DNA of 64,000 nt from Octopus vulgaris (GCA_951406725.2 OX597843.1:10540001-10604000); one strand, 5' to 3'. Counted from the stretch's first letter, positions 2,551 through 63,319 are shown. The notes: generated by a model not told the origin, from the sequence alone. Translations and numbers: made by a program.

Positions 2551-2594
2551 GTGTGTGTATATTGTCTTTCAATTGTCTTTCTATTTCTTTTCAG

Positions 2595-6052: not shown

Positions 6053-6059
6053 CCTAATG

Positions 6060-6618: not shown

Positions 6619-6691
<73 letters not shown>

Positions 6692-31071: not shown

Positions 31072-32496
31072 GTAAGTTAACGAACTAAAAACTTAACTAA
31101 TTATTCATCTGCTTTTTTGACTTCTTGTCCATCCTTATATTTTTCTGTGAGTGAGTGTCTTCTATTATAGCCCTGGGTGCTTACAAATGAATTGCAGGAG
31201 AATTTGATAGATGGAAACTGTGTGGAAGTCCATCGTGTGTGTGTGTATGTTTGGCAAAAGACTAAGAGAATGAAAAAAGAAAAATTAGTAGTGGGGTTGA
31301 TTTATCAAACTAAACCTTTCACGGTGATGCTCCAGCATGGCCACAGTCCAAATGGTCCAATGAGAGAAGTAAATAAAGAGATAAAGTTAGTAACTATAGA
31401 GAAAAAATTTTCAAACACATCACTGTGATACCAGTGCCAGTGGTACGTAAGAGAACCATCTGAACGTGGCCGTTGCCAGTGATGCCCCAACTGGCCTTGT
31501 GCCGGTGGCACGTAAAAAGCACCATCCGATCGTGGCCGTTAACAGCCTCGCCTGGCCCCCGTGCCGTTGGCGCGTAAAAAGTACCATCCGATCGTGGCCG
31601 TTTGCCAGCCTCATCTGGCACCTGTGCCGGTGGCACGTAAAAAGCACCCACTACACTCACGGAGTGGTTGGCGTTAGGAAGGGCATCCAGCTGTAGAAAT
31701 ATTGTCAGATCAGACTGGGCCTGGTGCAGCCTTCGGGCTTCCCAGACCCCAGTTGAACCGTCCAACCCATGCTAGCATGGAAAGCGGATGCTAAACGATG
31801 ATGATGATGATGATGATGATGATGATCACAACTACAGTTTCCATTTGATTTTTATCAACATCAAAATAAAAAGCAAATAGAAATTGTAGTTGTGATACCC
31901 GTGCTGGTGGCATGTAAAAAGCACCATCCAAATGTGGCTGATGCCAGCGCCACCTTAACTGGCTTCTGTATCAGTGGCATATAAAAAGCACCAACCGATT
32001 GTGGCAGCTGCCAGTCTCCTCTGGCTCCTGTACTGGTGGCACATAAAAAGCACCCACTACAGTCACGGAGTGGTTGGCATTAAGAAGGGCATTCAGCTGT
32101 AGAAACACTTCCAGATAAGACTGGAGCCTGGTGCAGCCTCCTGGCTTCCCAGACCCCAGTTGAACCATCCAACCCATGCTAGCATGGAAAATGGACGTTA
32201 AATGATGATGATGTTGAGTCCACCAGTGATAAGCTGCTACAAGGGAGATAATCTTTGCTTCATAATATTTGGTGGGATTAGATGTTTGAATCTGAAGTTA
32301 AGAAAGAAGATGCATATGTTTGTTCCCAAACAATACTTATTTTAGTGCTGTTGACACTGCCGGATCGAATGGTACTGCCCAAGTGTCAAAACTACAATGA
32401 TATCCATGAGGCAGCTGATGATGGGGGTATGTCGGATTGTTGGTATGGCTGCTTTTGTATATGTGGAATAGTGTTATAACACATCCTTTTGATATA

Positions 32497-33264: not shown

Positions 33265-33291
33265 TGCCATTGGACACTCTTTCTTCACTAC
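33265..33291 (+). CDS. CMIP: CMIP-like 27-nt micro-exon: (D)AIGHSFFT
   Basis: Long pyrimidine tract + ACAG acceptor, GTAAGT donor, phase 2/2; aligns to CMIP EALAHEKFT. Confidence 0.8.
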
Positions 33292-33811
33292 GTAAGTATC
33301 ATATATCAAATATATGTGTTTGTGTGTATGTGTATATATATTTGTATGTATGTGCATATATATATATATATGCACGTATGTATGAGTGTATGGATGTTTG
33401 TATATATATATATATATATTGTATGTATATGTGTGGATTTGGTAGGCGGAAACTGAAAGAAGCCTGTTGTATATATATCCTTAAAATCCTTAAAATGTTT
33501 TAGCCCGAAGGCCGCAGCCGTGCTGGGGCACCATATATATATATGTCTGTGTTTGTCCCCACCACCATCGCTTGATAACAAATGTTGGTGCGTTTACATC
33601 CCTGTAACTTATCGGTCCGGTAAATAAGACCGATAGAACAAGTACTAGGCTTACAAATAATAAGTCCTGGGGTTGATTTGCTCGACTAAAGGCGGTGCTC
33701 CAGCATGGCTGCAGTCAAATGACTGAAACAAGTAAAAGAGTAAAAAGAGTATATAACACTCTATCAGATACAAAGATGTGGGTTCCAGTTGATCCGATGC
33801 ATTAATATGCA

Positions 33812-36800
33812 TAGGCGCAGGAGTGGCTGTGTGGGAAGTAGCTTGCTTACCAACCACACGGTTCCGGGTTCAGTCCCACTGCGTGGCACTTTGGGCAAGT
33901 GTCTTCTACTATAGCCTTGGGCCGACCAAAGCCTTGTGAGTGGATTTGGTAGACGGAAACTGAAAGAAGCCCATCATATATATATAAATAGGCGCAGGAG
34001 TGGCTGTGTGGGAAGTAGCTTGCTTACCAACCACACGGTTCCGGGTTCAGTCCCACTGCGTGGCACTTTGGGCAAGTGTCTTCTACTATAGCCTTGGGCC
34101 GACCAAAGCCTTGTGAGTGGATTTGGTAGACGGAAACTGAAAGAAGCCCATCATATATATATAAATAGGCGCAGGAGTGGCTGTGTGGGAAGTAGCTTGC
34201 TTACCAACCACACGGTTCCGGGTTCAGTCCCACTGCGTGGCACTTTGGGCAAGTGTCTTCTACTATAGTCTTGGGCCGACCAAAGCCTTGTGAGTGGATT
34301 TGGTAGACGGAAACTGAAAGAAGCCCATCATATATATATAAATAGGCGCAGGAGTGGCTGTGTGGGAAGTAGCTTGCTTACCAACCACACGGTTCCGGGT
34401 TCAGTCCCACTGCGTGGCACTTTGGGCAAGTGTCTTCTACTATAGCCTTGGGCCGACCAAAGCCTTGTGAGTGGATTTGGTAGACGGAAACTGAAAGAAG
34501 CCCATCATATATATATAAATAGGCGCAGGAGTGGCTGTGTGGGAAGTAGCTTGCTTACCAACCACACGGTTCCGGGTTCAGTCCCACTGCGTGGCACTTT
34601 GGGCAAGTGTCTTCTACTATAGCCTTGGGCCGACCAAAGCCTTGTGAGTGGATTTGGTAGACGGAAACTGAAAGAAGCCCATCATATATATATAAATAGG
34701 CGCAGGAGTGGCTGTGTGGGAAGTAGCTTGCTTACCAACCACACGGTTCCGGGTTCAGTCCCACTGCGTGGCACTTTGGGCAAGTGTCTTCTACTATAGC
34801 CTTGGGCCGACCAAAGCCTTGTGAGTGGATTTGGTAGACGGAAACTGAAAGAAGCCCATCATATATATATAAATAGGCGCAGGAGTGGCTGTGTGGGAAG
34901 TAGCTTGCTTACCAACCACACAGTTCCGGGTTCACTCCCACTGCGTGGCACCTTGGGCAAGTGTCTTCTACTATAGCCTCGGGCCGACCAAAGCCTTGTG
35001 AGTGGATTTGGTAGACGGAAACTGAAAGAAGCCCATCATATATATATAAATAGGCGCAGGAGTGGCTGTGTGGGAAGTAGCTTGCTTACCAACCACACGG
35101 TTCCGGGTTCAGTCCCACTGCGTGGCACCTTGGGCAAGTGTCTTCTACTATAGCCTCGGGCCGACCAAAGCCTTGTGAGTGGATTTGGTAGACGGAAACT
35201 GAAAGAAGCCCATCATATATATATAAATAGGCGCAGGAGTGGCTGTGTGGGAAGTAGCTTGCTTACCAACCACACGGTTCCGGGTTCAGTCCCACTGCGT
35301 GGCACCTTGGGCAAGTGTCTTCTACTATAGCCTCGGGCCGACCAAAGCCTTGTGAGTGGATTTGGTAGACGGAAACTGAAAGAAGCCCATCATATATATA
35401 TAAATAGGCGCAGGAGTGGCTGTGTGGGAAGTAGCTTGCTTACCAACCACACGGTTCCGGGTTCAGTCCCACTGTGTGGCATCTTGGGCAAGTGTCTTCT
35501 GCTATAGCCTCGGGCCGACCAAAGCCTTGTGAGTGGATTTGGTAGACGGAAACTGAAAGAAGCCCATCATATATATATAAATAGGCGCAGGAGTGGCTGT
35601 GTGGGAAGTAGCTTGCTTACCAACCACACGGTTCCGGGTTCAGTCCCACTGTGTGGCATCTTGGGCAAGTGTCTTCTGCTATAGCCTCGGGCCGACCAAA
35701 GCCTTGTGAGTGGATTTGGTAGACGGAAACTGAAAGAAGCCCATCATATATATATACATAGGCGCAGGAGTGGCTGTGTGGGAAGTAGCTTGCTTACCAA
35801 CCACACGGTTCCGGGTTCAGTCCCACTGCGTGGCACTTTGGGCAAGTGTCTTCTACTATAGCCTTGGGCCGACCAAAGCCTTGTGAGTGGATTTGGTAGA
35901 CGGAAACTGAAAGAAGCCCATCATATATATATAAATAGGCGCAGGAGTGGCTGTGTGGGAAGTAGCTTGCTTACCAACCACACGGTTCCGGGTTCAGTCC
36001 CACTGCGTGGCACTTTGGGCAAGTGTCTTCTACTATAGCCTTGGGCCGACCAAAGCCTTGTGAGTGGATTTGGTAGACGGAAACTGAAAGAAGCCCATCA
36101 TATATATATAAATAGGCGCAGGAGTGGCTGTGTGGGAAGTAGCTTGCTTACCAACCACACGGTTCCGGGTTCAGTCCCACTGCGTGGCACTTTGGGCAAG
36201 TGTCTTCTACTATAGCCTTGGGCCGACCAAAGCCTTGTGAGTGGATTTGGTAGACGGAAACTGAAAGAAGCCCATCATATATATATAAATAGGCGCAGGA
36301 GTGGCTGTGTGGGAAGTAGCTTGCTTACCAACCACACTGTTCCGGGTTCACTCCCACTGCGTGGCACCTTGGGCAAGTGTCTTCTACTATAGCCTCGGGC
36401 CGACCAAAGCCTTGTGAGTGGATTTGGTAGACGGAAACTGAAAGAAGCCCATCATATATATATAAATAGGCGCAGGAGTGGCTGTGTGGGAAGTAGCTTG
36501 CTTACCAACCACACGGTTCCGGGTTCAGTCCCACTGTGTGGCACCTTGGGCAAGTGTCTTCTGCTATAGCCTCGGGCCGACCAAAGCCTTGTGAGTGGAT
36601 TTGGTAGACGGAAACTGAAAGAAGCCCATCATATATATATAAATAGGCGCAGGAGTGGCTGTGTGGGAAGTAGCTTGCTTACCAACCACACGGTTCCGGG
36701 TTCAGTCCCACTGTGTGGCATCTTGGGCAAGTGTCTTCTGCTATAGCCTCGGGCCGACCAAAGCCTTGTGAGTGGATTTGGTAGACGGAAACTGAAAGAA

Positions 36801-39800
36801 GCCCATCATATATATATACATAGGCGCAGGAGTGGCTGTGTGGGAAGTAGCTTGCTTACCAACCACACGGTTCCGGGTTCAGTCCCACTGCGTGGCACTT
36901 TGGGCAAGTGTCTTCTACTATAGCCTTGGGCCGACCAAAGCCTTGTGAGTGGATTTGGTAGACGGAAACTGAAAGAAGCCCATCATATATATATAAATAG
37001 GCGCAGGAGTGGCTGTGTGGGAAGTAGCTTGCTTACCAACCACACGGTTCCGGGTTCAGTCCCACTGCGTGGCACTTTGGGCAAGTGTCTTCTACTATAG
37101 CCTTGGGCCGACCAAAGCCTTGTGAGTGGATTTGGTAGACGGAAACTGAAAGAAGCCCATCATATATATATAAATAGGCGCAGGAGTGGCTGTGTGGGAA
37201 GTAGCTTGCTTACCAACCACACGGTTCCGGGTTCAGTCCCACTGCGTGGCACTTTGGGCAAGTGTCTTCTACTATAGCCTTGGGCCGACCAAAGCCTTGT
37301 GAGTGGATTTGGTAGACGGAAACTGAAAGAAGCCCATCATATATATATAAATAGGCGCAGGAGTGGCTGTGTGGGAAGTAGCTTGCTTACCAACCACACT
37401 GTTCCGGGTTCACTCCCACTGCGTGGCACCTTGGGCAAGTGTCTTCTACTATAGCCTCGGGCCGACCAAAGCCTTGTGAGTGGATTTGGTAGACGGAAAC
37501 TGAAAGAAGCCCATCATATATATATAAATAGGCGCAGGAGTGGCTGTGTGGGAAGTAGCTTGCTTACCAACCACACGGTTCCGGGTTCAGTCCCACTGCG
37601 TGGCACCTTGGGCAAGTGTCTTCTACTATAGCCTCGGGCCGACCAAAGCCTTGTGAGTGGATTTGGTAGACGGAAACTGAAAGAAGCCCATCATATATAT
37701 ATAAATAGGCGCAGGAGTGGCTGTGTGGGAAGTAGCTTGCTTACCAACCACACAGTTCCGGGTTCAATCCCACTGCGTGGCACCTTGGGCAAGTGTCTTC
37801 TACTATAGCCTCGGGCCGACCAAAGCCTTGTGAGTGGATTTGGTAGACGGAAACTGAAAGAAGCCCATCATATATATATAAATAGGCGCAGGAGTGGCTG
37901 TGTGGGAAGTAGCTTGCTTACCAACCACACGGTTCCGGGTTCAGTCCCACTGTGTGGCATCTTGGGCAAGTGTCTTCTGCTATAGCCTCGGGCCGACCAA
38001 AGCCTTGTGAGTGGATTTGGTAGACGGAAACTGAAAGAAGCCCATCATATATATATAAATAGGCGCAGGAGTGGCTGTGTGGGAAGTAGCTTGCTTACCA
38101 ACCACACGGTTCCGGGTTCAGTCCCACTGTGTGGCATCTTGGGCAAGTGTCTTCTGCTATAGCCTCGGGCCGACCAAAGCCTTGTGAGTGGATTTGGTAG
38201 ACGGAAACTGAAAGAAGCCCATCATATATATATAAATAGGCGCAGGAGTGGCTGTGTGGAAGTAGCTTGCTTACCAACCACACGGTTCCGGGTTCAGTCC
38301 CACTGTGTGGCATCTTGGGCAAGTGTCTTCTGCTATAGCCTCGGGCCGACCAAAGCCTTGTGAGTGGATTTGGTAGACGGAAACTGAAAGAAGCCCATCA
38401 TATATATATAAATAGGCGCAGGAGTGGCTGTGTGGGAAGTAGCTTGCTTACCAACCACACGGTTCCGGGTTCAGTCCCACTGTGTGGCACCTTGGGCAAG
38501 TGTCTTCTACTATAGCCTTGGGCCGACCAAAGCCTTGTGAGTGGATTTGGTAGACGGAAACTGAAAGAAGCCCATCATATATATATAAATAGGCAAAGGA
38601 GTGGCTGTGTGGTAAGTTACTTGCTTACCAACCACATGGTTCCGGGTTCAGTCCCACTGCATGGCACCTTAGGCAAGTGTCTTCTACTATAGCCTTGGGC
38701 CGACCAAAGCCTTGTGAGTGGATTTGGTAGACGGAAACTGAAAGAAGCCCATCATATATATATAAATAGGCGCAGGAGTGGCTGTGTGGGAAGTAGCTTG
38801 CTTACCAACCACACGGTTCCGGGTTCAGTCCCACTGCGTGGCACCTTGGGCAAGTGTCTTCTACTATAGCCTTGGGCCGACCAAAGCCTTGTGAGTGGAT
38901 TTGGTAGACGGAAACTGAAAGAAGCCCATCATATATATATACATAGGCAAAGGAGTGGCTGTGTGGTAAGTAGCTTGCTTACCAACCACACGGTTCCAGG
39001 TTCACTCCCACTGCGTGGCACCTTGGGCAAGTGTCTTCTACTATAGCCTTGGGCCGACCAAAGCCTTGTGAGTGGATTTGGTAGACGGAAACTGAAAGAA
39101 GCCCATCATATATATATACATAGGCAAAGGAGTGGCTGTGTGGTAAGTAGCTTGCTTACCAACCACACGGTTCCAGGTTCACTCCCACTGCGTGGCACCT
39201 TGGGCAAGTGTCTTCTACTATAGCCTTGGGCCGACCAAAGCCTTCTGAGTGGATTTGGTAGACGGAAACTGAAAGAAGCCCATCATATATATATACATAG
39301 GCAAAGGAGTGGCTGTGTGGTAAGTAGCTTGCTTACCAACCACACGGTTCCAGGTTCAGTCCCACTGCGTGGCACCTTGGGCAAGTGTCTTCTACTATAG
39401 CCTTGGGCCGACCAAAGCCTTGTGAGTGGATTTGGTAGACGGAAACTGAAAAAGCCCATCATATATATATACATAGGCAAAGGAGTGGCTGTGTGGTAAG
39501 TAGCTTGCTTACAAACCACACGGTTCCAGGTTCAGTCCCACTGCGTGGCACCTTGGGCAAGTGTCTTCTACTATAGCCTTGGGCCGACCAAAGCCTTGTG
39601 AGTGGATTTGGTAGACGGAAACTGAAAGAAGCCCATCATATATATATACATAGGCAAAGGAGTGGCTGTGTGGTAAGTAGCTTGCTTACCAACCACACGG
39701 TTCCAGGTTCACTCCCACTGCGTGGCACCTTGGGCAAGTGTCTTCTACTATAGCCTTGGGCCGACCAAAGCCTTGTGAGTGGATTTGGTAGACGGAAACT

Positions 39801-42800
39801 GAAAGAAGCCCATCATATATATATACATAGGCAAAGGAGTGGCTGTGTGGTAAGTAGCTTGCTTACAAACCACATGGTTCCGGGTTCAGTCCCACTTGCG
39901 TGGCATCTTGGGCAAGTGTCTTCTACTATAGCCTCGGGCCGACCAAAGCCTTCTGAGTGGATTTGGTAGACGGAAACTGAAAGAAGCCCATCATATATAT
40001 ATACATAGGCAAAGGAGTGGCTGTGTGGTAAGTAGCTTGCTTACCAACCACACGGTTCCAGGTTCAGTCCCACTGCGTGGCACCTTGGGCAAGTGTCTTC
40101 TACTATAGCCTTGGGCCGACCAAAGCCTTGTGAGTGGATTTGGTAGACGGAAACTGAAAGAAGCCCATCATATATATATACATAGGCAAAGGAGTGGCTG
40201 TGTGGTAAGTAGCTTGCTTACCAACCACACGGTTCCAGGTTCAGTCCCACTGCGTGGCACCTTGGGCAAGTGTCTTCTACTATAGCCTTGGGCCGACCAA
40301 AGCCTTGTGAGTGGATTTGGTAGACGGAAACTGAAAGAAGCCCATCATATATATATAAATAGGCAAAGGAGTGGCTGTGTGGTAAGTAGCTTGCTTACCA
40401 ACCACACGGTTCCAGGTTCACTCCCACTGCGTGGCACCTTGGGCAAGTGTCTTCTACTATAGCCTTGGGCCGACCGAAGCCTTGTGAGTGGATTTGGTAG
40501 ACGGAAACTGAAAGAAGCCCATCATATATATATACATAGGCAAAGGAGTGGCTGTGTGGTAAGTAGCTTGCTTACCAACCACACGGTTCCAGGTTCACTC
40601 CCACTGCGTGGCACCTTGGGCAAGTGTCTTCTACTATAGCCTTGGGCCGACCAAAGCCTTGTGAGTGGATTTGGTAGACGGAAACTGAAAGAAGCCCATC
40701 ATATATATATAAATAGGCANNNNNNNNNNNNNNNNNNNNNNNNNNNNNNNNNNNNNNNNNNNNNNNNNNNNNNNNNNNNNNNNNNNNNNNNNNNNNNNNN
40801 NNNNNNNNNNNNNNNNNNNACACGGTTCCAGGTTCACTCCCACTGCGTGGCACCTTGGGCAAGTGTCTTCTACTATAGCCTTGGGCCGACCAAAGCCTTG
40901 TGAGTGGATTTGGTAGACGGAAACTGAAAGAAGCCCATCATATATATATAAATAGGCAAAGGAGTGGCTGTGTGGTAAGTAGCTTGCTTACCAACCACAC
41001 GGTTCCAGGTTCAGTCCCACTGCGTGGCACCTTGGGCAAGTGTCTTCTACTATAGCCTTGGGCCGACCAAAGCCTTGTGAGTGGATTTGGTAGACGGAAA
41101 CTGAAAGAAGCCCATCATATATATATACATAGGCAAAGGAGTGGCTGTGTGGTAAGTAGCTTGCTTACCAACCACACGGTTCCAGGTTCCTCCCACTGCG
41201 TGGCACCTTGGGCAAGTGTCTTCTACTATAGCCTTGGGCCGACCAAAGCCTTGTGAGTGGATTTGGTAGACGGAAACTGAAAGAAGCCCATCATATATAT
41301 ATACATAGGCAAAGGAGTGGCTGTGTGGTAAGTAGCTTGCTTACCAACCACACGGTTCCAGGTTCACTCCCACTGCGTGGCACCTTGGGCAAGTGTCTTC
41401 TACTATAGCCTTGGGCCGACCAAAGCCTTGTGAGTGGATTTGGTAGACGGAAACTGAAAGAAGCCCATCATATATATATACATAGGCAAAGGAGTGGCTG
41501 TGTGGTAAGTAGCTTGCTTACCAACCACACGGTTCCAGTTCACCCCACTGCGTGGTGGAGACATTTGGAGACGGAAACTGAAAGAAGCCCATCATATATA
41601 TACATAGGCAGAGTGGCTGTGTGGTAAGTAGCTTGCTTACCAACCACACGGTTCAGGTTGGGCAAGTGTCTTCTACTATAGCCTTGGGCCGACCAAAGCC
41701 TTGTGAGTGGATTTGGTAGACGGAAACTGAAAGAAGCCCATCATATATATATACATAGGCAAAGGAGTGGCTGTGTGGTAAGTAGCTTGCTTACCAACCA
41801 CACGGTTCCAGGTTCACTCCCACTGCGTGGCACCTTGGGCAAGTGTCTTCTACTATAGCCTTGGGCCGACCAAAGCCTTGTGAGTGGATTTGGTAGACGG
41901 AAACTGAAAGAAGCCCATCATATATATATACATAGGCAAAGGAGTGGCTGTGTGGTAAGTAGCTTGCTTACCAACCACACGGTTCCAGGTTCACTCCCAC
42001 TGCGTGGCACCTTGGGCAAGTGTCTTCTACTATAGCCTTGGGCCGACCAAAGCCTTGTGAGTGGATTTGGTAGACGGAAACTGAAAGAAGCCCATCATAT
42101 ATATATACATAGGCAAAGGAGTGGCTGTGTGGTAAGTAGCTTGCTTACCAACCACACGGTTCCAGGTTCACTCCCACTGCGTGGCACCTTGGGCAAGTGT
42201 CTTCTACTATAGCCTTGGGCCGACCAAAGCCTTGTGAGTGGATTTGGTAGACGGAAACTGAAAGAAGCCCATCATATATATACATAGGCAAAGGAGTGGC
42301 TGTGTGGTAAGTAGCTTGCTTACCAACCACACGGTTCCAGGTTCACTCCCACTGCGTGGCACCTTGGGCAAGTGTCTTCTACTATAGCCTTGGGCCGACC
42401 AAAGCCTTGTGAGTGGATTTGGTAGACGGAAACTGAAAGAAGCCCATCATATATATATACATAGGCAAAGGAGTGGCTGTGTGGTAAGTAGCTTGCTTAC
42501 CAACCACACGGTTCCAGGTTCACTCCCACTGCGTGGCACCTTGGGCAAGTGTCTTCTACTATAGCCTTGGGCCGACCAAAGCCTTGTGAGTGGATTTGGT
42601 AGACGGAAACTGAAAGAAGCCCATCATATATATATACATAGGCAAAGGAGTGGCTGTGTGGTAAGTAGCTTGCTTACCAACCACACGGTTCCAGGTTCAC
42701 TCCCACTGCGTGGCACCTTGGGCAAGTGTCTTCTACTATAGCCTTGGGCCGACCAAAGCCTTGTGAGTGGATTTGGTAGACGGAAACTGAAAGAAGCCCA

Positions 42801-45800
42801 TCATATATATATACATAGGCAAAGGAGTGGCTGTGTGGTAAGTAGCTTGCTTACCAACCACACGGTTCCAGGTTCACTCCCACTGCGTGGCATCTTGGGC
42901 AAGTGTCTTCTACTATAGCCTTGGGCCGACCAAAGCCTTGTGAGTGGATTTGGTAGACGGAAACTGAAAGAAGCCCATCATATATATATACATAGGCAAA
43001 GGAGTGGCTGTGTGGTAAGTAGCTTGCTTACCAACCACACGGTTCCAGGTTCACTCCCACTGCGTGGCATCTTGGGCAAGTGTCTTCTACTATAGCCTTG
43101 GGCCGACCAAAGCCTTGTGAGTGGATTTGGTAGACGGAAACTGAAAGAAGCCCATCATATATATATACATAGGCAAAGGAGTGGCTGTGTGGTAAGTAGC
43201 TTGCTTACCAACCACACGGTTCCAGGTTCACTCCACTGCGTGGCACCTTGGGCAAGTGTCTTCTACTATAGCCTTGGGCCGACCAAAGCCTTGTGAGTGG
43301 ATTTGGTAGACGGAAACTGAAAGAAGCCCATCATATATATATACATAGGCAAAGGAGTGGCTGTGTGGTAAGTAGCTTGCTTACCAACCACACGGTTCCA
43401 GGTTCACTCCCACTGCGTGGCACCTTGGGCAAGTGTCTTCTACTATAGCCTTGGGCCGACCAAAGCCTTGTGAGTGGATTTGGTAGACGGAAACTGAAAG
43501 AAGCCCATCATATATATATACATAGGCAAAGGAGTGGCTGTGTGGTAAGTAGCTTGCTTACCAACCACACGGTTCCAGGTTCACTCCCACTGCGTGGCAC
43601 CTTGGGCAAGTGTCTTCTACTATAGCCTTGGGCCGACCAAAGCCTTGTGAGTGGATTTGGTAGACGGAAACTGAAAGAAGCCCATCATATATATATACAT
43701 AGGCAAAGGAGTGGCTGTGTGGTAAGTAGCTTGCTTACCAACCACACGGTTCCAGGTTCACTCCCACTGCGTGGCACCTTGGGCAAGTGTCTTCTACTAT
43801 AGCCTTGGGCCGACCAAAGCCTTGTGAGTGGATTTGGTAGACGGAAACTGAAAGAAGCCCATCATATATATATACATAGGCAAAGGAGTGGCTGTGTGGT
43901 AAGTAGCTTGCTTACCAACCACACGGTTCCAGGTTCACCCCACTGCGTGGCACCTTGGGCAAGTGTCTTCTACTATAGCCTTGGGCCGACCAAAGCCTTG
44001 TGAGTGGATTTGGTAGACGGAAACTGAAAGAAGCCCATCATATATATATACATAGGCAAAGGAGTGGCTGTGTGGTAAGTAGCTTGCTTACCAACCACAC
44101 GGTTCCAGGTTCACTCCCACTGCGTGGCACCTTGGGCAAGTGTCTTCTACTATAGCCTTGGGCCGACCAAAGCCTTGTGAGTGGATTTGGTAGACGGAAA
44201 CTGAAAGAAGCCCATCATATATATATAAATAGGCAAAGGAGTGGCTGTGTGGTAAGTAGCTTGCTTACCAACCACACGGTTCCAGGTTCACTCCCACTGC
44301 GTGGCATCTTGGGCAAGTGTCTTCTACTATAGCCTTGGGCCGACCAAAGCCTTGTGAGTGGATTTGGTAGACGGAAACTGAAAGAAGCCCATCATATATA
44401 TATACATAGGCAAAGGAGTGGCTGTGTGGTAAGTAGCTTGCTTACCAACCACACGGTTCCAGGTTCACTCCCACTGCGTGGCACCTTGGGCAAGTGTCTT
44501 CTACTATAGCCTTGGGCCGACCAAAGCCTTGTGAGTGGATTTGGTAGACGGAAACTGAAAGAAGCCCATCATATATATATACATAGGCAAAGGAGTGGCT
44601 GTGTGGTAAGTAGCTTGCTTACCAACCACACGGTTCCAGGTTCACTCCACTGCGTGGCACCTTGGGCAAGTGTCTTCTACTATAGCCTTGGGCCGACCAA
44701 AGCCTTGTGAGTGGATTTGGTAGACGGAAACTGAAAGAAGCCCATCATATATATATACATAGGCAAAGGAGTGGCTGTGTGGTAAGTAGCTTGCTTACCA
44801 ACCACACGGTTCCAGGTTCACTCCCACTGCGTGGCACCTTGGGCAAGTGTCTTCTACTATAGCCTTGGGCCGACCAAAGCCTTGTGAGTGGATTTGGTAG
44901 ACGGAAACTGAAAGAAGCCCATCATATATATATACATAGGCAAAGGAGTGGCTGTGTGGTAAGTAGCTTGCTTACCAACCACACGGTTCCAGGTTCACTC
45001 CCACTGCGTGGCACCTTGGGCAAGTGTCTTCTACTATAGCCTTGGGCCGACCAAAGCCTTGTGAGTGGATTTGGTAGACGGAAACTGAAAGAAGCCCATC
45101 ATATATATATACATAGGCAAAGGAGTGGCTGTGTGGTAAGTAGCTTGCTTACCAACCACACGGTTCCAGGTTCACTCACTGCGTGGCACCTTGGGCAAGT
45201 GTCTTCTACTATAGCCTTGGGCCGACCAAAGCCTTGTGAGTGGATTTGGTAGACGGAAACTGAAAGAAGCCCATCATATATATATACATAGGCAAAGGAG
45301 TGGCTGTGTGGTAAGTAGCTTGCTTACCAACCACACGGTTCCAGGTTCACTCCCACTGCGTGGCACCTTGGGCAAGTGTCTTCTACTATAGCCTTGGGCC
45401 GACCAAAGCCTTGTGAGTGGATTTGGTAGACGGAAACTGAAAGAAGCCCATCATATATATATACATAGGCAAAGGAGTGGCTGTGTGGTAAGTAGCTTGC
45501 TTACCAACCACACGGTTCCAGGTTCACTCCCACTGCGTGGCATCTTGGGCAAGTGTCTTCTACTATAGCCTTGGGCCGACCAAAGCCTTGTGAGTGGATT
45601 TGGTAGACGGAAACTGAAAGAAGCCCATCATATATATATACATAGGCAAAGGAGTGGCTGTGTGGTAAGTAGCTTGCTTACCAACCACACGGTTCCAGGT
45701 TCACTCCCACTGCGTGGCACCTTGGGCAAGTGTCTTCTACTATAGCCTTGGGCCGACCAAAGCCTTGTGAGTGGATTTGTAGACGGAAACTGAAAGAAGC

Positions 45801-47565
45801 CCATCATATATATATACATAGGCAAAGGAGTGGCTGTGTGGTAAGTAGCTTGCTTACCAACCACACGGTTCCAGGTTCACTCCCACTGCGTGGCACCTTG
45901 GGCAAGTGTCTTCTACTATAGCCTTGGGCCGACCAAAGCCTTGTGAGTGGATTTGGTAGACGGAAACTGAAAGAAGCCCATCATATATATATACATAGGC
46001 AAAGGAGTGGCTGTGTGGTAAGTAGCTTGCTTACCAACCACACGGTTCCAGGTTCACTCCCACTGCGTGGCACCTTGGGCAAGTGTCTTCTACTATAGCC
46101 TTGGGCCGACCAAAGCCTTGTGAGTGGATTTGGTAGACGGAAACTGAAAGAAGCCCATCGTATAGGCGCAGGGGTGGCTGTGTGGTAAGTAGCTTGTTTA
46201 CCAACCACATGGTTCCGGGTTCAGTCCCACTGCATGGCACCTTGGGCAGGTGTCTTCTACTATAGCCTTGGGCCGACCAAAGCCTTGTGAGTGGATTTGG
46301 TAGACGGAAACTGAAAGAAGCCCATCATATATATATAAATAGGCAAAGGAGTGGCTGTGTGGTAAGTAGCTTGCTTACCAACCACACGGTTCCAGGTTCA
46401 CTCCCACTGCGTGGCACCTTGGGCAAGTGTCTTCTACTATAGCCTTGGGCCGACCAAAGCCTTGTGAGTGGATTTGGTAGACGGAAACTGAAAGAAGCCC
46501 ATCATATATATATACATAGGCAAAGGAGTGGCTGTGTGGTAAGTAGCTTGCTTACCAACCACACGGTTCCAGGTTCACTCCCACTGCGTGGCACCTTGGG
46601 CAAGTGTCTTCTACTATAGCCTCGGGCCGACCAAAGCCTTGTGAGTGGATTTGGTAGACGGAAACTGAAAGAAGCCCATCATATATATATAAATAGGCAA
46701 AGGAGTGGCTGTGTGGGAAGTAGCTTGCTTACCAACCACACGGTTCCGGGTTCAGTCCACTGCGTGGCACCTTGGGCAAGTGTCTTCTACTATAGCCTTG
46801 GGCCGACCAAAGCCTTGTGAGTGGATTTGGTAGACGGAAACTGAAAGAAGCCCATCATATATATATAAATAGGGAAAGGAGTGGCTGTGTGGTAAGTAGC
46901 TTGCTTACCAACCACACGGTTCCAGGTTCACTCCCACTGCGTGGCACCTTGGGCAAGTGTCTTCTACTATAGCCTCGGGCCGACCAAAGCCTTGTGAGTG
47001 GATTTGGTAGACGGAAACTGAAAGAAGCCCATCATATATATATAAATAGGCAAAGGAGTGGCTGTGTGGTAAGTAGCTTGCTTACCAACCACACGGTTCC
47101 AGGTTCACTCCCACTGCGTGGCACCTTGGGCAAGTGTCTTCTACTATAGCCTCTGGCCGACCAAAGCCTTGTGAGTGGATTTGGTAGACGGAAACTGAAA
47201 GAAGCCCATCATATATATATAAATAGGCAAAGGAGTGGCTGTGTGGTAAGTAGCTTGCTTACCAACCACACGGTTCCAGGTTCACTCCCACTGCGTGGCA
47301 CCTTGGGCAAGTGTCTTCTACTATAGCCTCGGGCCGACCAAAGCCTTGTGAGTGGATTTGGTAGACGGAAACTGAAAGAAGCCCATCATATATATATAAA
47401 TAGGCAAAGGAGTGGCTGTGTGGGAAGTAGCTTGCTTACCAACTACACGGTTCCGGGTTCAGTCCCACTGCGTGGCACCTTGGGCAAGTGTCTTCTACTA
47501 TAGCCTTGGGCCGACCAAAGCCTTGTGAGTGGATTTGGTAGACGGAAACTGAAAGAAGCCGTCGT
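33812..47565 (+). repeat. SINE-derived satellite: ~77-78 head-to-tail copies of a 177-bp tRNA-SINE 5' module; the last unit continues into a full SINE tail (to ~47832)
   Basis: Heads at 33814, 33991, 34168... to 47403; units joined by CCCATCATATATATATA(A/C)ATA; lies wholly within one CMIP intron. Confidence 0.97.
40720..40819. other. Assembly gap (100 N) inside the satellite
   Basis: Run of N; true array length unknown. Confidence 1.
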
Positions 47566-47572
47566 ATATATG

Positions 47573-47621
<49 letters not shown>

Positions 47622-48373
47622 GTTTGTGTGTCTGTGTTTGTCCCCCCCCCCCAACATCGCTTCACAAATGATGCTGGTGTGTTTACGTCCCTGTTACTTA
47701 GCGGTTCAGCAAAAGAGACTGATAGAATAAGTACTAGGCTTACAAGAATAAGTCCTGGGGTCCATATGCTAGACTAAAAAGGCGGTGCTCCAGCATGGCC
47801 GCAGTGAAATGACAGAAACAAGTAAAAGAGTAAGTGACCGAGTACTCCACAGAGATTCAGTGTGAAGCAGAATGTAACCAGAGTGGCCCTTTTGACTATA
47901 GGGTCACCTCATTTTTGCCAGCTGAATGGACTGGCATGAACTGCATACTCTAACTACTAAGCCATGTGCCTTCATTTAATTATTAATTAAATGAATTATT
48001 AGCAATAATTAATTGCTACAATTTAATTGAGATCTTATAAATTACTTGATGTCTTCAATAACATTACATACGTTCATGTGCGAGGCACCGTATATGAAGA
48101 GAAGCAACTCTAGCTTCTTAAAGTTGACAAATAAAGGTTATAATTGTGTGTGTGCGTGTGTATATCTATGTCCCTACTTACACTCAGCCGGGTGCAGGCT
48201 GTGTGCTAAGAAGTGGGCTTCCCAACCACATGATTCCAGGATCAGTCCCACTGCGTGGCACCTTGGCTAAGTGTCTCTTACTATAGCCTCGAGCTGACCA
48301 AAGCCTTGTGAGTGGATTTGGTAAACAGAAATTGAAAGAAGCCCATCGTGATATATATATATATATATATATA

Positions 48374-48518
48374 TTTACATACAAATTTTAAAGGACTGAC
48401 CACTAAAAGTGGACGGTCAATATGCTAGATATAGACGTCAAAAAGCGATTTTGACGTCTATATCTAGCATGTTGACCATCCACTTTTAGTGGTCAATCCT
48501 TAAAATTTTGTATGCAAA
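48374..48518. repeat. Imperfect ~145-bp palindrome in a (TA)n-flanked insert
   Basis: GACCACTAAAAGTGGA..ATGCTAGATATAGACGTCAAAA / TTTTGACGTCTATATCTAGCAT..TCCACTTTTAGTGGTC. Confidence 0.9.
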
Positions 48519-48596
48519 AATATTTTAATCTTCAGATTTTTTTAATATGCTAGGCCACTGGTTTTAATTAATTAATATCAATTTCTACCCTTATTC

Positions 48597-48637
<41 letters not shown>

Positions 48638-48641
<4 letters not shown>

Positions 48642-49196
48642 TTGATCACCTTGACTGACCAGTCCATCAGGCGTCCATTTGACACCGCTGGTCACAGCAC
48701 GCTGTCCACTCCTCTCTGGATCGCGCCTTTCTCATCCACGTGGTCCCAATCATTCTCCTGAAATCCTAACTCCACCGTCATGGAGGTCTTCCGTGTGGTC
48801 TTTTCCGCTCGCGTGGGTACCACTCGACAACTGCGTGTGTCCACCGATTATCGGTAAGCCGGGCAACGTGTCCAGCCCATCTATACATGCTGCGTGTATA
48901 CTCTGCGATGACATCTCTCACGCCGGACTTCTTTCTGATGATCTCGCTACTGATGTGCTCTCTCAACGAGATACCAAGCATTGACCTTTCCATGGCTCTT
49001 TGAGCTGTTACCAGTCTCTGCTCTTCTCTCTTTGTGGTAGGCCATGTTTCACTACCATATAACATTGCTGGCAGAACTGCACTGTTAATGAGGTTGGCGC
49101 GGGTAGTCCTGTCCAACCTTCCCTTGAGCACATCCCTTATGCCATTGAACGCCTTCCATCCGGCCCTTACTCTCCGTGAGATCTCCTTTTCGAAAA
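48638..49196 (-). mobile_element. RTE-clade LINE, 5'-truncated ORF2 C-terminus
   Basis: EISRRVRAGWKAF...VLPAMLYGSETW...AMERSMLGISLR...RWAGHVARLTDNRW...KRPHGRPP*. Confidence 0.92.
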
Positions 49197-49204
49197 GGAA
49201 AAGG

Positions 49205-49235
<31 letters not shown>

Positions 49236-50611
49236 TGTGCTTTTGTGTTTGTCCCTCACTATCGCTTGACAACCGCTGCTGGTGTGTTTATGTCCCCATA
49301 AGTTAGCGGTGCAGCAAAAGAGACCGATAAAATAAGTACTCGGCTTATGAAGAATAAGTCCTGGGATCCTAGATTTGTTCAACTACAGGTGGTGCTTCAG
49401 CATGGCCGCACTCAAATGAGTGAAAGAAGTAAAAGAATATATATATATATATTTTTTTTTTACTTGTTTCAGTCATTTGACTGCGACCATGCTGGAGCAC
49501 CGCCTTTAGTCAAGTAACTCGACCCCGGGACTTATTCTTTGTAAGCGCAGTACTTATTCTATTGGTCTCTTTTGCCAAACCGCTAAGTGACGGGGATGTA
49601 AACACACCAGCATCGGTTGTCAAGCGATGTTGGGGGGACAAACACAGACACACATATATATATACATATATACGATGGGCTTCTAGATTTGTTCAACTAC
49701 AGGTGGTGCTTCAGCATGGCCGCACTCAAATGAGTGAAACAAGTAAAAGAATATATATATATATAGACCAAAGTGTACGTACGCCACTATATACAAGAGC
49801 ATTAGATTCCTTGGAAGAAAGCAGCAAATGTATACAAAAACAAGGATGGTAAAAAAACGGACGTTACACAAATACAATAAAAATAATAACAGGACATAAC
49901 AACAGGTGTCTTTCGACTAAGGACAAGTTAGATTAAGCTGGCATGTGTGGAAATGAAGCCTTACGGCAGGGATATTTTAGATATTATTTTATATATATAT
50001 ATGGTAAGTAGCTTGTTTACCAACCACATGGTTCCGGGTTCAGTCCCACTGCATGGCACCTTGGGCAAGTGTCTTCTACTATAGCCTCGGGCCGACCAAA
50101 GCCTTATGAGTGGATTTTGTAGACCGAAACTGAAAGAAGCTCGTTTTTATATATGTATATGTATGTATATATGCGTGTGTGTGTTTGTGTGTCTGTGTTT
50201 GTCCCCCTAGCATTGCTTGACAACCGATGCTGGTGTGTTTATGTCCCCGTTACTTAGCGGTTCGGCAAAAGAGACCTATAGAATAAGTACTGGGCTTACA
50301 AAAGAATAAGTCCCAGGATCGAGTTGCTCAATTAAAGGCGGTGCTCCAGCATGGCCGCAGTCACATGACTGAAACAAGTAAAAGAGTAAAAGAGTATGTA
50401 TATATATATATATATTGTCAATAATAAAAGGTTAAAATTAATTAATTATTAATTAGTGTTCAGTACGTAAAGACCATTTACGGTATATTTAAAACAATAC
50501 GTTATATAATTAGGGTTTGTCTGGGAGACTTTTCTTATAGTAGAGGAAATAGCTAAATTTTTTGGCTGCTATTTCTAAAAGTTCGGTGTCTGGTAAAGTA
50601 AATATAACGTA

Positions 50612-50645
<34 letters not shown>

Positions 50646-51283
50646 ATTGTGTATGTAATTAAATATGTATATATGATGTATGTATATATAAGTGTGTGTG
50701 TGTATTCATATGAGTGTGTGTATGCGTGTACTAGCAAGCTTAGCACTTTGGGCTAACAGATCCTTCTTGCAGGCATTATACCATTATACGCATTTTAAGA
50801 CAGCAAAGTGCCTAGTATTGCGTCAAATCCTGTTTGAGAAGTGTTCACTTCAAGAGCATACATACTTATACAAATAAACTACACGTGGCTGTGTGGTAAG
50901 TAGCTTGCTTACCAACCACATGGTTCTGGGTTCAGTCCCACTGCATGGCATCTTGGGCAAGTGTCTTCTGCTATAGCCCCGGGCCGACCAATGCCTTGTG
51001 AGTGGATTTGGTAGACGGAAACTGAAAGAAGCCCGTCGTATATATGTATCTATCTATATATATATATATACACACACACATACTTATATATATATGTACA
51101 CACACATACATACATAGGCGCAGGAGTGGCTGTGTGGTAAGTAGCTTGCTTACCAACCACTTGGTTCTGGGTTCAGTCCCACTGCGTGGCATCTTGGGCA
51201 AGTGTCTTCTGCTATAGCCCCGGGCCGACCAATGCCTTGTGAGTGGATTTGGTAGACGGAAACTGAAAGAAGCCTGTCATGTA

Positions 51284-51333
<50 letters not shown>

Positions 51334-51861
51334 AGTGACTGTGTGGTAAGTAGCTTGTTTACCAACCACATGGTTCCGGGTTCAGTCCCACTGCGTGGCA
51401 TCTTGGGTAAGTGTCTTCTACTATAGCCTTGGGCCGACCAAAGCCTTGTGAGTGAATTTGGTTGACGGAAACTGAAAGAAGCCCGTCGTATATATGTATA
51501 TATATGTGTGTGTGTGTATATGTTTGTGTGTCTGTGTTTGTCCCTCGAGCATTGCATGACAACCATGCTGGTGCGTTTATATCCCTGTCACTTAGCGGTC
51601 CGGCAAAAGCGACTGATAGAATGAGTACTGGGCTTACAAAGAATAAGTCCCGGGGTCAATTTGGTTGACTAAAGGTGGTGCTCCAGCATGGCCACAGTCA
51701 AATGACTGCAACAAGTAATTTGCACATGCATCTGAATGAGAGGACAAATAAGAAAGGGTTAGATTTTGTAGGGGTTATGATATATGTAGTGGGTTTTGGT
51801 GGTTGTGGTGCTGCACACCCAGTGTTTAATGGCCCCCTTCTGTTGATCTCTCTTGTTGCAG

Positions 51862-52018
51862 GCGCATGAAACCTATCATCAAACAGATTGCCCTCGACCC
51901 AAGCTGTAACACACACCAGACACTGTTGAGTATCCGTGAGAATAAAGAAGGATGGTTCAATCTCTACTGTCCAGGAAACATCTGTTGTGATGATGACGGA
52001 GAATTATGGGGCATTATG
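51862..52018 (+). CDS. CMIP: CMIP-like exon: (T)RMKPIIKQIALDPSCNTHQTLLSIRENKEGWFNLYCPGNICCDDDGELWGIM
   Basis: ttgcag acceptor, GTGAGT donor; matches CMIP [29 protein letters not shown]. Confidence 0.94.
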
Positions 52019-53610: not shown

Positions 53611-54185
53611 TTATTATTAATCACCATCATCATCGTTTAGCGTTTGTTTTCCATGCTGGCATGGGGTTGGATGGTGCAACTGGGGTCTGGGAAGCCAGAA
53701 GGCTGCACCAGGCCCAGTCTGATCTGGCAATGTTTCTACGGCTGGATGCCCTTCCTAACGCCAACCACTCCATGAGTGTAGTGGGTGCTTTTTACGTGCC
53801 ACCAGCACAGGAGCCAGATGAGGCTAGCAAACGGCCACGATCGGATGGTGCTTTTTACGTGCCACTGGCACAGGAGCCAGGCGAGGCTGGCAACGGCCAC
53901 GGTTGGATGGTGCTTTTTTTGTGCCACCAGCACAGGAGCCAGGCGAGGCTGGCAACGGCCACGATCAGATGGTGCTTTTTACGTGCCACCGGCACGGAAG
54001 CCAGTCGGGGCAGCGCTGGCAACGGCCACGTTCGGATGGTTCTCTTATGTGCCACCTGCACTGGTATCACAGCTGCAATTTCCATTGATGTTGATCGATT
54101 TTGATTTGATTTTCACTTGCCTCTGATTATTGTTAATATTTATTAATTACCGTAATTAACTGGTTAATTATTTTATCATCCACAG

Positions 54186-55794: not shown

Positions 55795-58330
55795 TTCTTT
55801 ACTCCATGCTCTTTTTCTGTTTTTTTCCTACCCTCGGTCCTATCTTTTTTTCGTTTTTTTTCTTGATTCTCTTCTTTTGACCCCTGTCTCATTCCGTCAT
55901 GCGGTTTTTTTTCCCTGTTTTTCATTCTTCTCTCTTTAACTCCTACTTTATCTTGTCTTGCCTTTTTCTGTTTTTTTCTTACATCTCACACTTTGACTCC
56001 TGTTTTATTCTGCCTATTTTTCTGTTTTTTCTTCTCTCTTTAACTCCTACTTAATCTTGTATTGCCTTTTTCTGTTTTTTTCCTACCCATGGTCCTATCT
56101 TTTTTGGTTTTTTCCTCATTCTCTCCTTTTGACTCCTGTCTCATTCTGTTATACAGTTTTTCCCTGTTTTTCATTCTTCTCTCTTTAACTCCTACTTTAT
56201 CTTGTCTTGCCTTTTTCTGTTTTTTTTACGTCTCACACTTTGACCCCTGTTTTATTCTGCCTACTGTATTTTTCTGTTTTTTCTTCTCTCTTTAACTCCT
56301 ACTTTATCTTGTCTTGCCTTTTTCTGTTTTTTTTACGTCTCACACTTTGACCCCTGTTTTATTCTGCCTACTGTATTTTTCTGTTTTTTCTTCTCTCTTT
56401 AACTCCTACTTTATCTTGTCTTGCCTTTTTCTGTTTTTTTTACGTCTCACACTTTGACCCCTGTTTTATTCTGCCTACTGTATTTTTCTGTTTTTTCTTC
56501 TCTCTTTAACTCCTACTTTATCTTGTGTTGCCTTTTTCTGTTTTTTTTACGTCTCACACTTTGACCCCTGTTTTATTCTGCCTACTGTATTTTTCTGTTT
56601 TTTCTTCTCTCTTTAACTCCTACTTTATCTTGTCTTTTTCTGTTTTTCCTGCCCTAGGTCCTATCTTTTTTGTTTATTCCTGATTCTCTCCTTTCGACTC
56701 CTGTCTCATTCTGTCATGCAGTTTTTCTTCTGTTTTCCATTCTTCTCTCTTTTTGACTCTTGTATTGCCTTTTTCTGTTTTTTTTTCATCTCACATTTTG
56801 ACCCCTGTTTTATTCTGCCTACTGTATTTTTCTGTTTTTTCTTCTCTCTTTAACTCCTACTTTATCTTGTCTTGCCTTTTTCTGTTTTTTCCTGCCCTAG
56901 GTCCTATCTTTTTCAGTTTTTTCCTGATTCTCTCCTTTCGACTCCTGTCTCATTCTGTCATGCAATTTTTCTTCTGTTTTTCATTCTTCTCTCTTTTTGA
57001 CTCTTGTATTGCCTTTTTCTATTTTTTTTTCATCTCACACTTAGACCCCTGTTTTATTCTGCCTAGTGTATTTTTCTGTTTTTTCTTCTCTCTTTAACTC
57101 ATACTTAATCTTATCTTGCTTTTTTCTGTTTTTTTCCTACCCTTGGTCCTATCTTTTTCAGTTTTTTCCTGATTCTCTTCTTTTGAATTCTGTCTCATTC
57201 TGTCATGCGTTTTTTCTGTTTTTCATTCTTCGCTCTTTTTGACTCTTTCCTTATCTTGTCTTGCCTTTTTCTGTTTTTTTCATCTCACACTTTGACCCCT
57301 GTTTTATTCTGCCTACTGTATTTTTCTTCTCTCTTTAACTCCTTTATCTTGTCTTGCCTTTTTCTGTTTTTTTCATCTCACACTTTGACCCCTGTTTTAT
57401 TCTGCCTACTGTATTTTTCTTCTCTCTTTAACTCCTTTATCTTGTCTTGCCTTGTTCTGTTTTTTTCATCTCACACTTTGACCCCTGTTTTATTCTGCCT
57501 ACTGTATTTTTCTTCTCTCTTTAACTCCTTTATCTTGTCTTGCCTTTTTCTGTTTTTTTCATCTCACACTTTGACCCCTGTTTTATTCTGCCTACTGTAT
57601 TTTTCTCTCTTTAACTCCTTTATCTTGTCTTGCCTTTTTCTGTTTTTTTCATCTCACACTTTGACCCCTGTTTTATTCTGCCTACTGTATTTTTCTTCTC
57701 TCTTTAACTCCTTTATCTTGTCTTGCCTTTTTCTGTTTTTTTCATCTCACACTTTGACCCCTGTTTTATTCTGCCTACTGTATTTTTCTTCTCTCTTTAA
57801 CTCCTTTATCTTGTCTTGCCTTTTTCTGTTTTTTTCATCTCACACTTTGACCCCTGTTTTATTCTGCCTACTGTATTTTCCTTCTCTCTTTAACTCCTTT
57901 ATCTTGTCTTGCCTTTTTCTGTTTTTTTCATCTCACACTTTGACCCCTGTTTTATTCTGCCTACTGTATTTTTCTTCTCTTTAATTCCTTTATCTTGTCT
58001 TGCCTTTTTCTGTTTTTTTCATCTCACACTTTGACCCCTGTTTTATTCTGCCTACTGTATTTTTCTTCTCTCTTTAACTCCTTTATCTTGTCTTGCCTTT
58101 TTCTGTTTTTTTCATCTCACACTTTGACCCCTGTTTTATTCTGCCTACTGTATTTTTCTTCTCTCTTTAACTCCTTTATCTTGTCTTGCCTTTTTCTGTT
58201 TTTTCCCACCCTCGTTCCTATCTTTTTTGGTTTTTTCTTGACTCTCTCCTTTTGACTCCTGTCTTATTCTGTCATGCGGTTTTTTTTCTGTTTTTCATTC
58301 TTTTACTTTTGGACTCCTATCTTACCTTGT
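55795..58330. repeat. Pyrimidine-rich minisatellite (107-bp and 93-bp unit variants) decaying to ~58900
   Basis: TCTCACACTTTGACCCCTGTTTTATTCTGCCTACTGTA recurs every 107 bp (e.g. 56249, 56356), then every 93 bp (e.g. 57301, 57394). Confidence 0.92.
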
Positions 58331-60113: not shown

Positions 60114-60144
<31 letters not shown>

Positions 60145-60160
60145 CAGCAGCAGCAACAGC

Positions 60161-60234
<74 letters not shown>

Positions 60235-60300
60235 CAGCAGCAGCAGTAGCAGCAGCAGCAGTAGTAGTAGTAGCAGTAGTAGTAGTAGTAGTAGTAGTAG
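60113..60300. repeat. (TAG)n/(CAG)n trinucleotide tract
   Basis: Direct inspection. Confidence 0.95.

Positions 60301-63118: not shown

Positions 63119-63319
<201 letters not shown>

What the first reader, a model, noticed from the sequence alone, without database searches (positions are those of the whole stretch)
33812..47832. 13.7-kb intronic satellite made of the Pol III promoter-bearing half of a SINE
Seen: ~77-78 highly similar 177-bp units, each the tRNA-like head (A-box-like TGGCTGTGTGG, B-box-like GTTCAGTCC) plus body of the dominant SINE, cut at its internal TA microsatellite; only the last unit has the SINE tail. Inference: a SINE caught turning into a satellite, probably by unequal exchange or rolling-circle amplification between the TA target tract and the internal TA tract. 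It could act as a cluster of TFIIIC/Pol III sites (insulator, small-RNA source) inside a Pol II gene; 177 bp is also about one nucleosome repeat.
Basis: partly seen in the sequence, partly recalled or inferred. Interest (0 to 1): 0.75.

Follow-up and report, generated by a model that had tools for sequence, protein, structure and literature searches.

The report
Octopus SINE heads stacked into satellite
About 78 copies of the front half of a common octopus jumping element sit head to tail in an intron of the CMIP gene; dozens of smaller stacks elsewhere in the genome suggest they likely start when the element lands in its own TA repeat, and they are probably harmless by-products of a known kind.

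Summary
Real, but a known kind. Window 33811-47831 holds 78 heads (177-bp unit) of a young octopus SINE and one tail, sense-oriented in the 18.6-kb intron after a 27-nt exon of the CMIP orthologue. The array is not unique: 31 other runs of 4-26 heads were inspected, each with its own junction and private variants; none ends in two tails. There is no upstream TA target tract here; the insertion splits an older repeat. Nested SINE-in-SINE insertions at the internal TA tract are common (7 of 40 junction loci). Such an event, loss of one tail, then unequal exchange is the likeliest origin. Nothing supports a Pol III, insulator or nucleosome role: the B-box departs from consensus in nearly all units, and periods elsewhere run 167-187 bp. 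It meets the definition of the squamate SINE-derived satellites and resembles blood-clam intronic SINE arrays. The scan has noted SINE-derived satellites in other genomes and SINE self-insertion elsewhere in this one. Interest 0.36.

The parts
33811..47560 (+). Tandem array of 78 SINE heads (unit = 161-bp head with A/B-box-like motifs and body + about 16 bp of TA-tract remnant)
   Evidence: TRF; unit split
33811..38588 (+). G-type block, units 1-27: G at unit position 25, family-type B-box, variant blocks repeated about three times
38943..47399 (+). T-type block: changed 5' end, A56, mostly C63 in the B-box; spans the gap; more single-base indels right of the gap (11 of 38 intervals off 177 bp, against 3 of 38 on the left)
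40720..40819 (.). 100-N assembly gap inside the array
47400..47831 (+). Last head, internal TA/TG microsatellite and the single SINE tail
46162..46338 (+). Foreign-looking unit behind a 10-bp shorter junction that is shared with a head run 176 kb downstream and with contig C34; units at 38589 and 39827 also lack the array's private C49
33754..33810 (+). Left half of an older interspersed repeat split by the insertion
47832..47935 (+). Right half of the same older repeat; rejoins the left half with about 1 base of overlap and no TA tract
33265..33291 (+). 27-nt CMIP exon (residues 293-301 of P0001) just upstream of the array
51862..52018 (+). Next CMIP exon (residues 302-353); intron 33292-51861 is 18,570 nt including the gap

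Best explanation
This is a SINE-derived satellite in a CMIP intron that likely began when a younger SINE copy inserted into the internal TA tract of a resident copy, likely lost one of the two tails, and then likely grew by unequal exchange between adjacent heads, probably with no selected function. Shown: the anatomy, the host intron, the split older repeat, the many independent sister arrays, and nested insertions at the TA tract elsewhere in the genome. Inferred: that this locus took that route, that the extra tail was deleted between TA tracts, and that the array is neutral. In this model the internal units end like the older resident head, the last head ends like the newcomer, and the tail is the resident's.
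For: Nested self-insertion happens: 7 of 40 head-head junction loci are head-head-tail-tail, and the inner tail is closer to consensus than the outer in 7 of 7, one of them marginally. In several head-head-tail loci the first head is 12-21% diverged and the second 4-6%, so two separate copies met. Of 27 sister arrays, 8 have a lead head that aligns only from beyond base 5; in at least 5 of these the internal heads carry 5' bases the lead lacks, which a duplication of the lead cannot supply. At this locus the internal units end CATCA (1 of 66 single copies) while the last head ends in the family-type GTCG. The tail differs from its subfamily consensus at 13 of 193 bases, the heads at 2-6 of 161 (P=0.014 for 4 or fewer of 161 at the tail's rate). 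Growth by stepwise exchange: repeated variant blocks, neighbours differ by 3.5 bases against 6.3 overall, and C63 occurs on both subtype backgrounds. Independent origins: sister arrays have private variants and different junctions, identity 0.91-0.996 within and 0.917 between; this array's exact junction occurs at only one other place in G000.
Against: None of 31 other runs of four or more heads ends in two tails (24 end in one, 7 in none; P=0.016 against the 7 of 32 tailed junction loci), so the model needs tail loss before or during growth every time. First and last heads share rare alleles (G25 in 2, C49 in 23 of 496 other heads), which a single founder explains more simply; the nested model needs conversion to reach both ends. 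The left flank and the T-type junction match at 10 of 11 bases, as a local duplication predicts. The tail subfamily consensus rests on 12 copies, some old. No data on chromatin, expression or copy-number variation were obtained, so neutrality is argued only from sequence.
Confidence: 0.55

Rival explanations
1. One SINE inserted, and its head was duplicated in place through a few bases of microhomology between the element's own 5' end plus flank and its internal TA tract; unequal exchange did the rest.
For: The element itself starts ATAG; flank and T-type junction agree at 10 of 11 bases; both end heads share G25 and C49; the flanks rejoin cleanly around a single tail; one sister array (L033 at 6667) fits this exactly; all tailed arrays have one tail.
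Against: Internal units and the last head differ at 3-4 of the 17 bases after the head; the tail is more diverged than the heads; at least 5 sister arrays cannot be explained this way; upstream TA tracts are not enriched before arrays.
Confidence: 0.23
2. The first extra head was added during retrotransposition: the reverse transcriptase reached the SINE's 5' end and jumped to a TA tract of a SINE RNA, or a read-through transcript of a multi-head locus was copied, giving heads-then-one-tail in one insertion.
For: Gives one tail automatically (24 of 24 tailed arrays). Lead heads are 5'-short as often as single copies (8 of 27 against 20 of 67). Heads hold no T4 terminator. Three two-head loci have heads at most 2% apart (0.8% of random pairs). 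Template jumping is shown in vitro for human L1 ORF2p (PMC10830420, passages).
Against: Predicts tail and last head of equal age, but the tail is more diverged here. No dispersed copies of this junction beyond one locus. The partner LINE was not identified.
Confidence: 0.13
3. The array is kept by selection as a cluster of TFIIIC/Pol III sites (insulator or RNA source) or as nucleosome-phasing DNA inside CMIP.
For: Every unit keeps A-box-like and B-box-like motifs 44 bases apart; 34 of 76 keep the family B-box or a better one; the family is young (median 4.7% from consensus), so that promoter worked recently.
Against: A B-box change spread through about half the units; only 1 unit matches the recalled B-box consensus; no terminator until 47890; no tRNA match in Rfam or ARAGORN and no unusual fold; periods of sister arrays show no fixed length; equivalent arrays arise at many unrelated loci.
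Confidence: 0.06
4. The array is largely an assembly expansion of a few real copies.
For: A gap lies inside it; damaged units and single-base indels cluster right of the gap; the two contig ends are both T-type and could overlap.
Against: Units carry ordered, heritable-looking substitution patterns and a subtype switch within one contig; 39 heads lie on each side of the gap; gap-free sister arrays of 13-26 heads exist.
Confidence: 0.03

Closest known systems
SINE-derived satellites (sSat1-3) of squamate reptiles (PMC10702118; parts 1-4 of 5 read)
   Same: Unit is part of a tRNA-related SINE, shorter than the SINE; a terminal unit extends to the SINE end; few to hundreds of units; long loci more homogeneous; locus-specific subvariants; some variants cover the head; some clustering at a chromosome end (C16 here).
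   Different: Here the unit boundary is the SINE's internal TA microsatellite, whereas the snake unit shows no variation from the (TC)n tract; the whole A/B-box head is repeated; each locus has its own junction instead of one genome-wide variant; this array is mid-scaffold and intronic.
Intronic tandem SINE arrays of the blood clam S. broughtonii (PMC11481361; section 15 and passages read)
   Same: Mollusc; arrays in introns; units truncated at the 3' side with a final copy that keeps the full tail.
   Different: 4-15 units there against 78 or more here; internal units there are also 5'-truncated and framed by target-site duplications, which are absent here.
Tandem TEs made by double insertion, then expanded by unequal exchange (Drosophila; PMC5932611, passages read)
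   Same: Two insertions at one site give a dimer that unequal exchange can expand.
   Different: There the shared target is a host site and junctions are tail-to-head or tail-to-internal; here the target is a microsatellite inside the element and the junction is internal-to-head.
PcH-sat of the limpet Patella, 179-bp satellite with a Nin-SINE segment (PMC11121367; abstract only)
   Same: Mollusc satellite of similar unit length derived in part from a SINE.
   Different: A mature pericentromeric satellite making up to 10% of the genome; no parent SINE left attached.
Octopus tRNA-derived SINEs OK/OR1/OR2 (Ohshima and Okada 1994; not read, named in PMC4758252 and PMC4824008 passages)
   Same: An abundant octopus SINE with A/B-box-like head; its body resembles the CORE domain by recall only.
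   Different: Family identity untested: no sequence was available, and the two papers name different families (OR2, OR1) as the CORE SINE.

Membership tests
SINE-derived satellite (sSat, PMC10702118) | Unit is a portion of a dispersed SINE of the same genome | tested here: met
   Units differ from the consensus of 97 single heads at 2-6 of 161 bases; full head-tail copies are dispersed through the window
SINE-derived satellite (sSat, PMC10702118) | At least four middle monomers head to tail | tested here: met
   78 heads
SINE-derived satellite (sSat, PMC10702118) | A terminal unit extends to the SINE terminus | tested here: met
   Last head continues into microsatellite and tail, 47400-47831
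SINE-derived satellite (sSat, PMC10702118) | Units more alike within a locus than between loci | tested here: met
   0.970 within this array, 0.917 between arrays
SINE-derived satellite (sSat, PMC10702118) | Tendency to subtelomeric position (a trend in that paper, not its definition) | tested here: not met
   This array is at 10.57 of 21.16 Mb on C30; a cluster of smaller arrays does lie in the last 0.3 Mb of C16
tRNA-derived SINE | Head, body, shared tail ending in simple repeats; dispersed high copy number; 5'-truncated copies | tested here: met
tRNA-derived SINE | Head derived from a tRNA | tested here: inconclusive
   A/B-box-like motifs at tRNA-like spacing and a possible acceptor-stem pairing, but no Rfam tRNA hit at E<=10 and no ARAGORN call
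tRNA-derived SINE | Transcribed by Pol III | not testable with these tools
   No raw RNA reads or ChIP data
CORE-SINE / octopus OR1 or OR2 | Central CORE domain; identity with the published family | not tested
   No consensus obtainable; resemblance is recalled
TFIIIC-bound insulator (B-box cluster) | Consensus B-box (GWTCRANNC, recalled) | tested here: not met
   1 of 76 units matches; the family form and the T-type form lack the invariant A
TFIIIC-bound insulator (B-box cluster) | TFIIIC occupancy and barrier activity | not testable with these tools
   needs ChIP and reporter assays
Double-insertion tandem TE (PMC5932611) | Dimer of two independently inserted copies precedes the array | tested here: inconclusive
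   Shown at other loci; indirect at this locus

The most novel reading that the evidence does not exclude
This SINE is a self-seeding satellite generator: its internal TA tract is also its insertion target, so it repeatedly makes head-head dimers that expand into promoter arrays, with every stage from single copy through nested copy to a 78-unit array present in one genome and arrays trading junctions with neighbours. At this locus the stacked heads also stack splice-donor sites in the CMIP pre-mRNA, and the 27 units nearest the 27-nt exon have lost that donor, which could reflect selection on splicing.
Probability: 0.3. Interest if true: 0.6.

Novelty: new member of a known kind. Interest (0 to 1): 0.36.

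Why it matters
The reptile study left open why some SINEs seed satellites and whether this happens outside squamates. This genome gives a concrete, testable cause (a microsatellite inside the SINE that attracts further copies) and shows the intermediates side by side at dozens of independent loci, so birth rate and growth of satellites could be measured in population long reads. The array also shows that such loci break assemblies inside genes. A regulatory role for CMIP would raise the interest, but nothing here supports one.

Tried and rejected
Read-level check of array size: DNA contigs of four runs laid on the left end were swamped by 160,000-290,000 contigs of dispersed SINE copies per run and say nothing about this locus; no read evidence on copy number or on splicing across this intron was obtained. 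Shared ancestry with the 17-head array on C21 (same C49, A56, similar junction) was dropped: that haplotype also occurs at 78 dispersed places among the 100 listed of 129 matches. A genome-wide multi-head subfamily with this exact junction was dropped: 71 of 72 matches are in this array. tRNA identity of the head: Rfam and ARAGORN gave nothing, folding z-scores -0.3 to -1.1. Naming the SINE family failed: no hits in 4 supplementary files of PMC4758252 (file 1 not searched), SINEBase supplements unavailable, Albertin 2015 not held; unseen supplements may name the family. 'Largest such array in the genome' is not shown: pattern searches list only 100 matches (429 of 529 unlisted, 127 of 227, 204 of 304, 117 of 217, 206 of 306), and many extra matches are short minisatellites. 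A cryptic 97-nt exon across the junction was considered; its acceptor is weak (11 pyrimidines of 20 against 13-19 in 11 true acceptors). Searches for a prior description in octopus listed no paper on SINE-derived arrays in octopus; a search joining B box, TFIIIC, SINE, insulator and tandem array found none.

Full report
Observation. TRF reports a 177-bp array of 78.0 copies at 33811-47571. Splitting on the head motif gives 77 anchored heads plus a partial one, with 61 of 77 intervals exactly 177 bp. Each unit is the 161-bp 5' part of the commonest SINE of the window plus about 16 bp of its internal TA tract; only the last head (47400) runs on through the microsatellite into the tail, ending at 47831. 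A run of 100 N lies inside the array at 40720-40819, with 39 heads on each side. The true length may be greater, or somewhat smaller if the two contig ends overlap. Off-length intervals are 3 of 38 left of the gap and 11 of 38 right of it, mostly single-base losses in runs, which I read as consensus errors.

Host. The window lies at C30:10,540,001-10,604,000 of a 2.8-Gb genome, G000. The exon after the array is 100% identical over 52 residues to C-Maf-inducing protein X1 of Octopus sinensis (P0001). tblastn places 14 exons of that protein in order on the + strand of the window and two just beyond it. The array sits, sense-oriented, in the intron 33292-51861 (18,570 nt; the other 12 introns measure about 1.3-7.5 kb), 520 bp behind a 27-nt exon. 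The intron claim is therefore confirmed by homology, not by reads.

Insertion site. Both flanks match one older interspersed repeat, and the sequence left of 33811 continues directly into the sequence right of 47831 in ten other copies of that repeat. There is no TA tract and no target duplication beyond about one base. Full-length single copies begin ATAGG, so the ATA at the array's start belongs to the element. Upstream TA tracts are found before 5 of 27 other arrays and 10 of 67 single copies (P=0.76).

Internal structure. Units 1-27 (G-type) and 30-77 (T-type) differ at unit positions 7, 8, 25, 56, 63 and in the junction; the switch lies within the left contig. The G-type block repeats the same order of variant units about three times, neighbours differ by 3.5 bases against 6.3 for all pairs, and C63 occurs on both backgrounds. 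This fits stepwise unequal exchange and conversion rather than one rolling-circle burst or an assembly artefact (inference). Three units lack the array's private C49. One follows a shorter junction with G12 that occurs at 4 of 25 short-junction loci: this one, one 176 kb downstream, and two on contig C34 (P=0.010 against 3 of 86 single copies). I read this as exchange with neighbouring head runs (inference).

The class. A narrow exact pattern finds 427 head-to-head junctions in G000. From listed hits I fetched and inspected 31 runs of four or more heads outside the window, 4-26 heads long; 24 end in one tail (whole or partial), 7 in none, none in two. These were picked from search lists, not at random, and two may be one duplicated locus. 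Periods run 167-187 bp, identity is 0.91-0.996 within and 0.917 between arrays, and each has its own junction and private variants. This array's junction occurs at one other place only. The window itself holds two two-head copies and a three-head copy. Full heads are denser on C28-C30 (56 in 320 kb) than on C1-C9 (9 in 200 kb), and array hits concentrate on the small scaffolds and the end of C16. So this is the longest inspected member of a recurrent class.

How the first extra head arises. Of 40 junction loci taken from the start of the list, 7 are head-head-tail-tail, 25 have one tail and 8 are cut or irregular. In all 7 the inner tail is the less diverged (one marginally): a younger copy landed in the TA tract of an older one. 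Several one-tail loci pair an old first head with a young second head; a few have nearly identical heads and an old tail. In at least 5 of the 8 arrays whose lead head is 5'-short, the internal heads hold bases the lead lacks. At this locus the internal units end CATCA (1 of 66 single copies), the last head ends in the family form, and the tail is 13 of 193 bases from its 12-copy subfamily consensus while heads are 2-6 of 161 from theirs. These points favour nested insertion, loss of the newcomer's tail between TA tracts, and homogenisation (0.55). Against it: no long array keeps two tails (P=0.016), both end heads share rare alleles, and the flank matches the T-type junction at 10 of 11 bases, which favours local duplication (0.23). 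Template jumping by the reverse transcriptase, shown in vitro for L1 ORF2p (PMC10830420, passages), would also give one tail (0.13).

Function. The A-box-like motif is intact in 75 of 76 units. The B-box is GTTCAGTCC in 33, GTTCACTCC in 35, GTTCAATCC in 1 and indel-damaged in 7; 74 of 97 single copies have the first form. Against the recalled consensus GWTCRANNC only one unit matches fully, although the family evidently spread with its own form (median divergence 4.7%). No unit holds four T; the first such run is at 47890, so any Pol III transcript would read through rather than give a discrete small RNA (inference). Rfam and ARAGORN see no tRNA. The 177-bp period follows from the SINE's anatomy, and the same SINE also yields 24-, 30-, 37- and 95-bp tandem units. 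One oddity remains: 47 units carry a GTG|GTAAGT donor-like site, but all 27 nearest the small exon have G25, which destroys it, so the first decoy is 5.3 kb from the true donor. Chance fixation explains this well enough; selection is not excluded.

Comparison with what is known. [quoted passage not shown] Intronic SINE arrays of 4-15 units with a final full tail are described in the blood clam (PMC11481361, section 15), a SINE-related 179-bp satellite in a limpet (PMC11121367, abstract), and double insertion as a seed of satellites in Drosophila (PMC5932611, passages). A 2026 repeat annotation of O. vulgaris gives SINEs as 11.6% of that genome and, in the two of three parts I read, does not discuss such arrays (PMC13282606). 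My searches listed no description of them in octopus. The SINE family name is unresolved.

Verdict. A real, well-formed SINE-derived satellite of unmeasured length, a new member of a known kind. What is of interest is the family-wide pattern and a plausible built-in trigger, not a function of this array. Interest 0.36.

Noticed in passing
window 16429-16496, 59397-59465, 63315-63383 (+): Antisense copies of the SINE tail supply an acceptor and a donor 68-69 nt apart inside CMIP introns, a possible route to exonisation.
   Followed up: no
window 38609-47399: 47 array units carry a GTG|GTAAGT donor-like site; the 27 units nearest the 27-nt exon lack it; a weak acceptor in each unit could define a 97-nt frameshifting pseudo-exon across the junction.
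   Followed up: partly
L126:2678-8598; L127:1301-2706; G000 C17:69.55 Mb; C22:40.14 Mb; C12:76.24 Mb; C3:177.83 Mb: The same SINE head seeds short minisatellites: 24 bp x 247 and 37 bp x 38 from the A-box region, a 30-bp B-box unit, a 95-bp unit, and 26- and 27-bp units.
   Followed up: partly
G000 C16:58.45-58.76 Mb: Dense cluster of multi-head runs in the last 0.3 Mb of C16; the scaffold ends inside a head array.
   Followed up: partly
L032:1140-6170 and 8736-9999; L128: A 26-head, 185-bp array on C28 has a second run with the same variants next to a 100-N gap, possibly a duplicated or mis-joined array.
   Followed up: partly
window 459-1112, 3039-3628, 50885-51718: Two two-head and one three-head SINE copies in the same gene region; the one at 459 has a junction close to the array's.
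   Followed up: partly
window 33265-33291: The 27-nt CMIP exon encodes Ile where the O. sinensis protein P0001 has Val.
   Followed up: no
window 55811-58816 and 60114-61639: Other tandem arrays in CMIP introns: pyrimidine-rich 52-107-bp and 93-bp units, and a 187-bp unit just before the 61683 exon.
   Followed up: no
window 2145-11804, 31430-32054, 53784-54061, 62113-62380: A second dispersed repeat carries 2-6 tandem copies of a 61-67-bp unit at many places.
   Followed up: no
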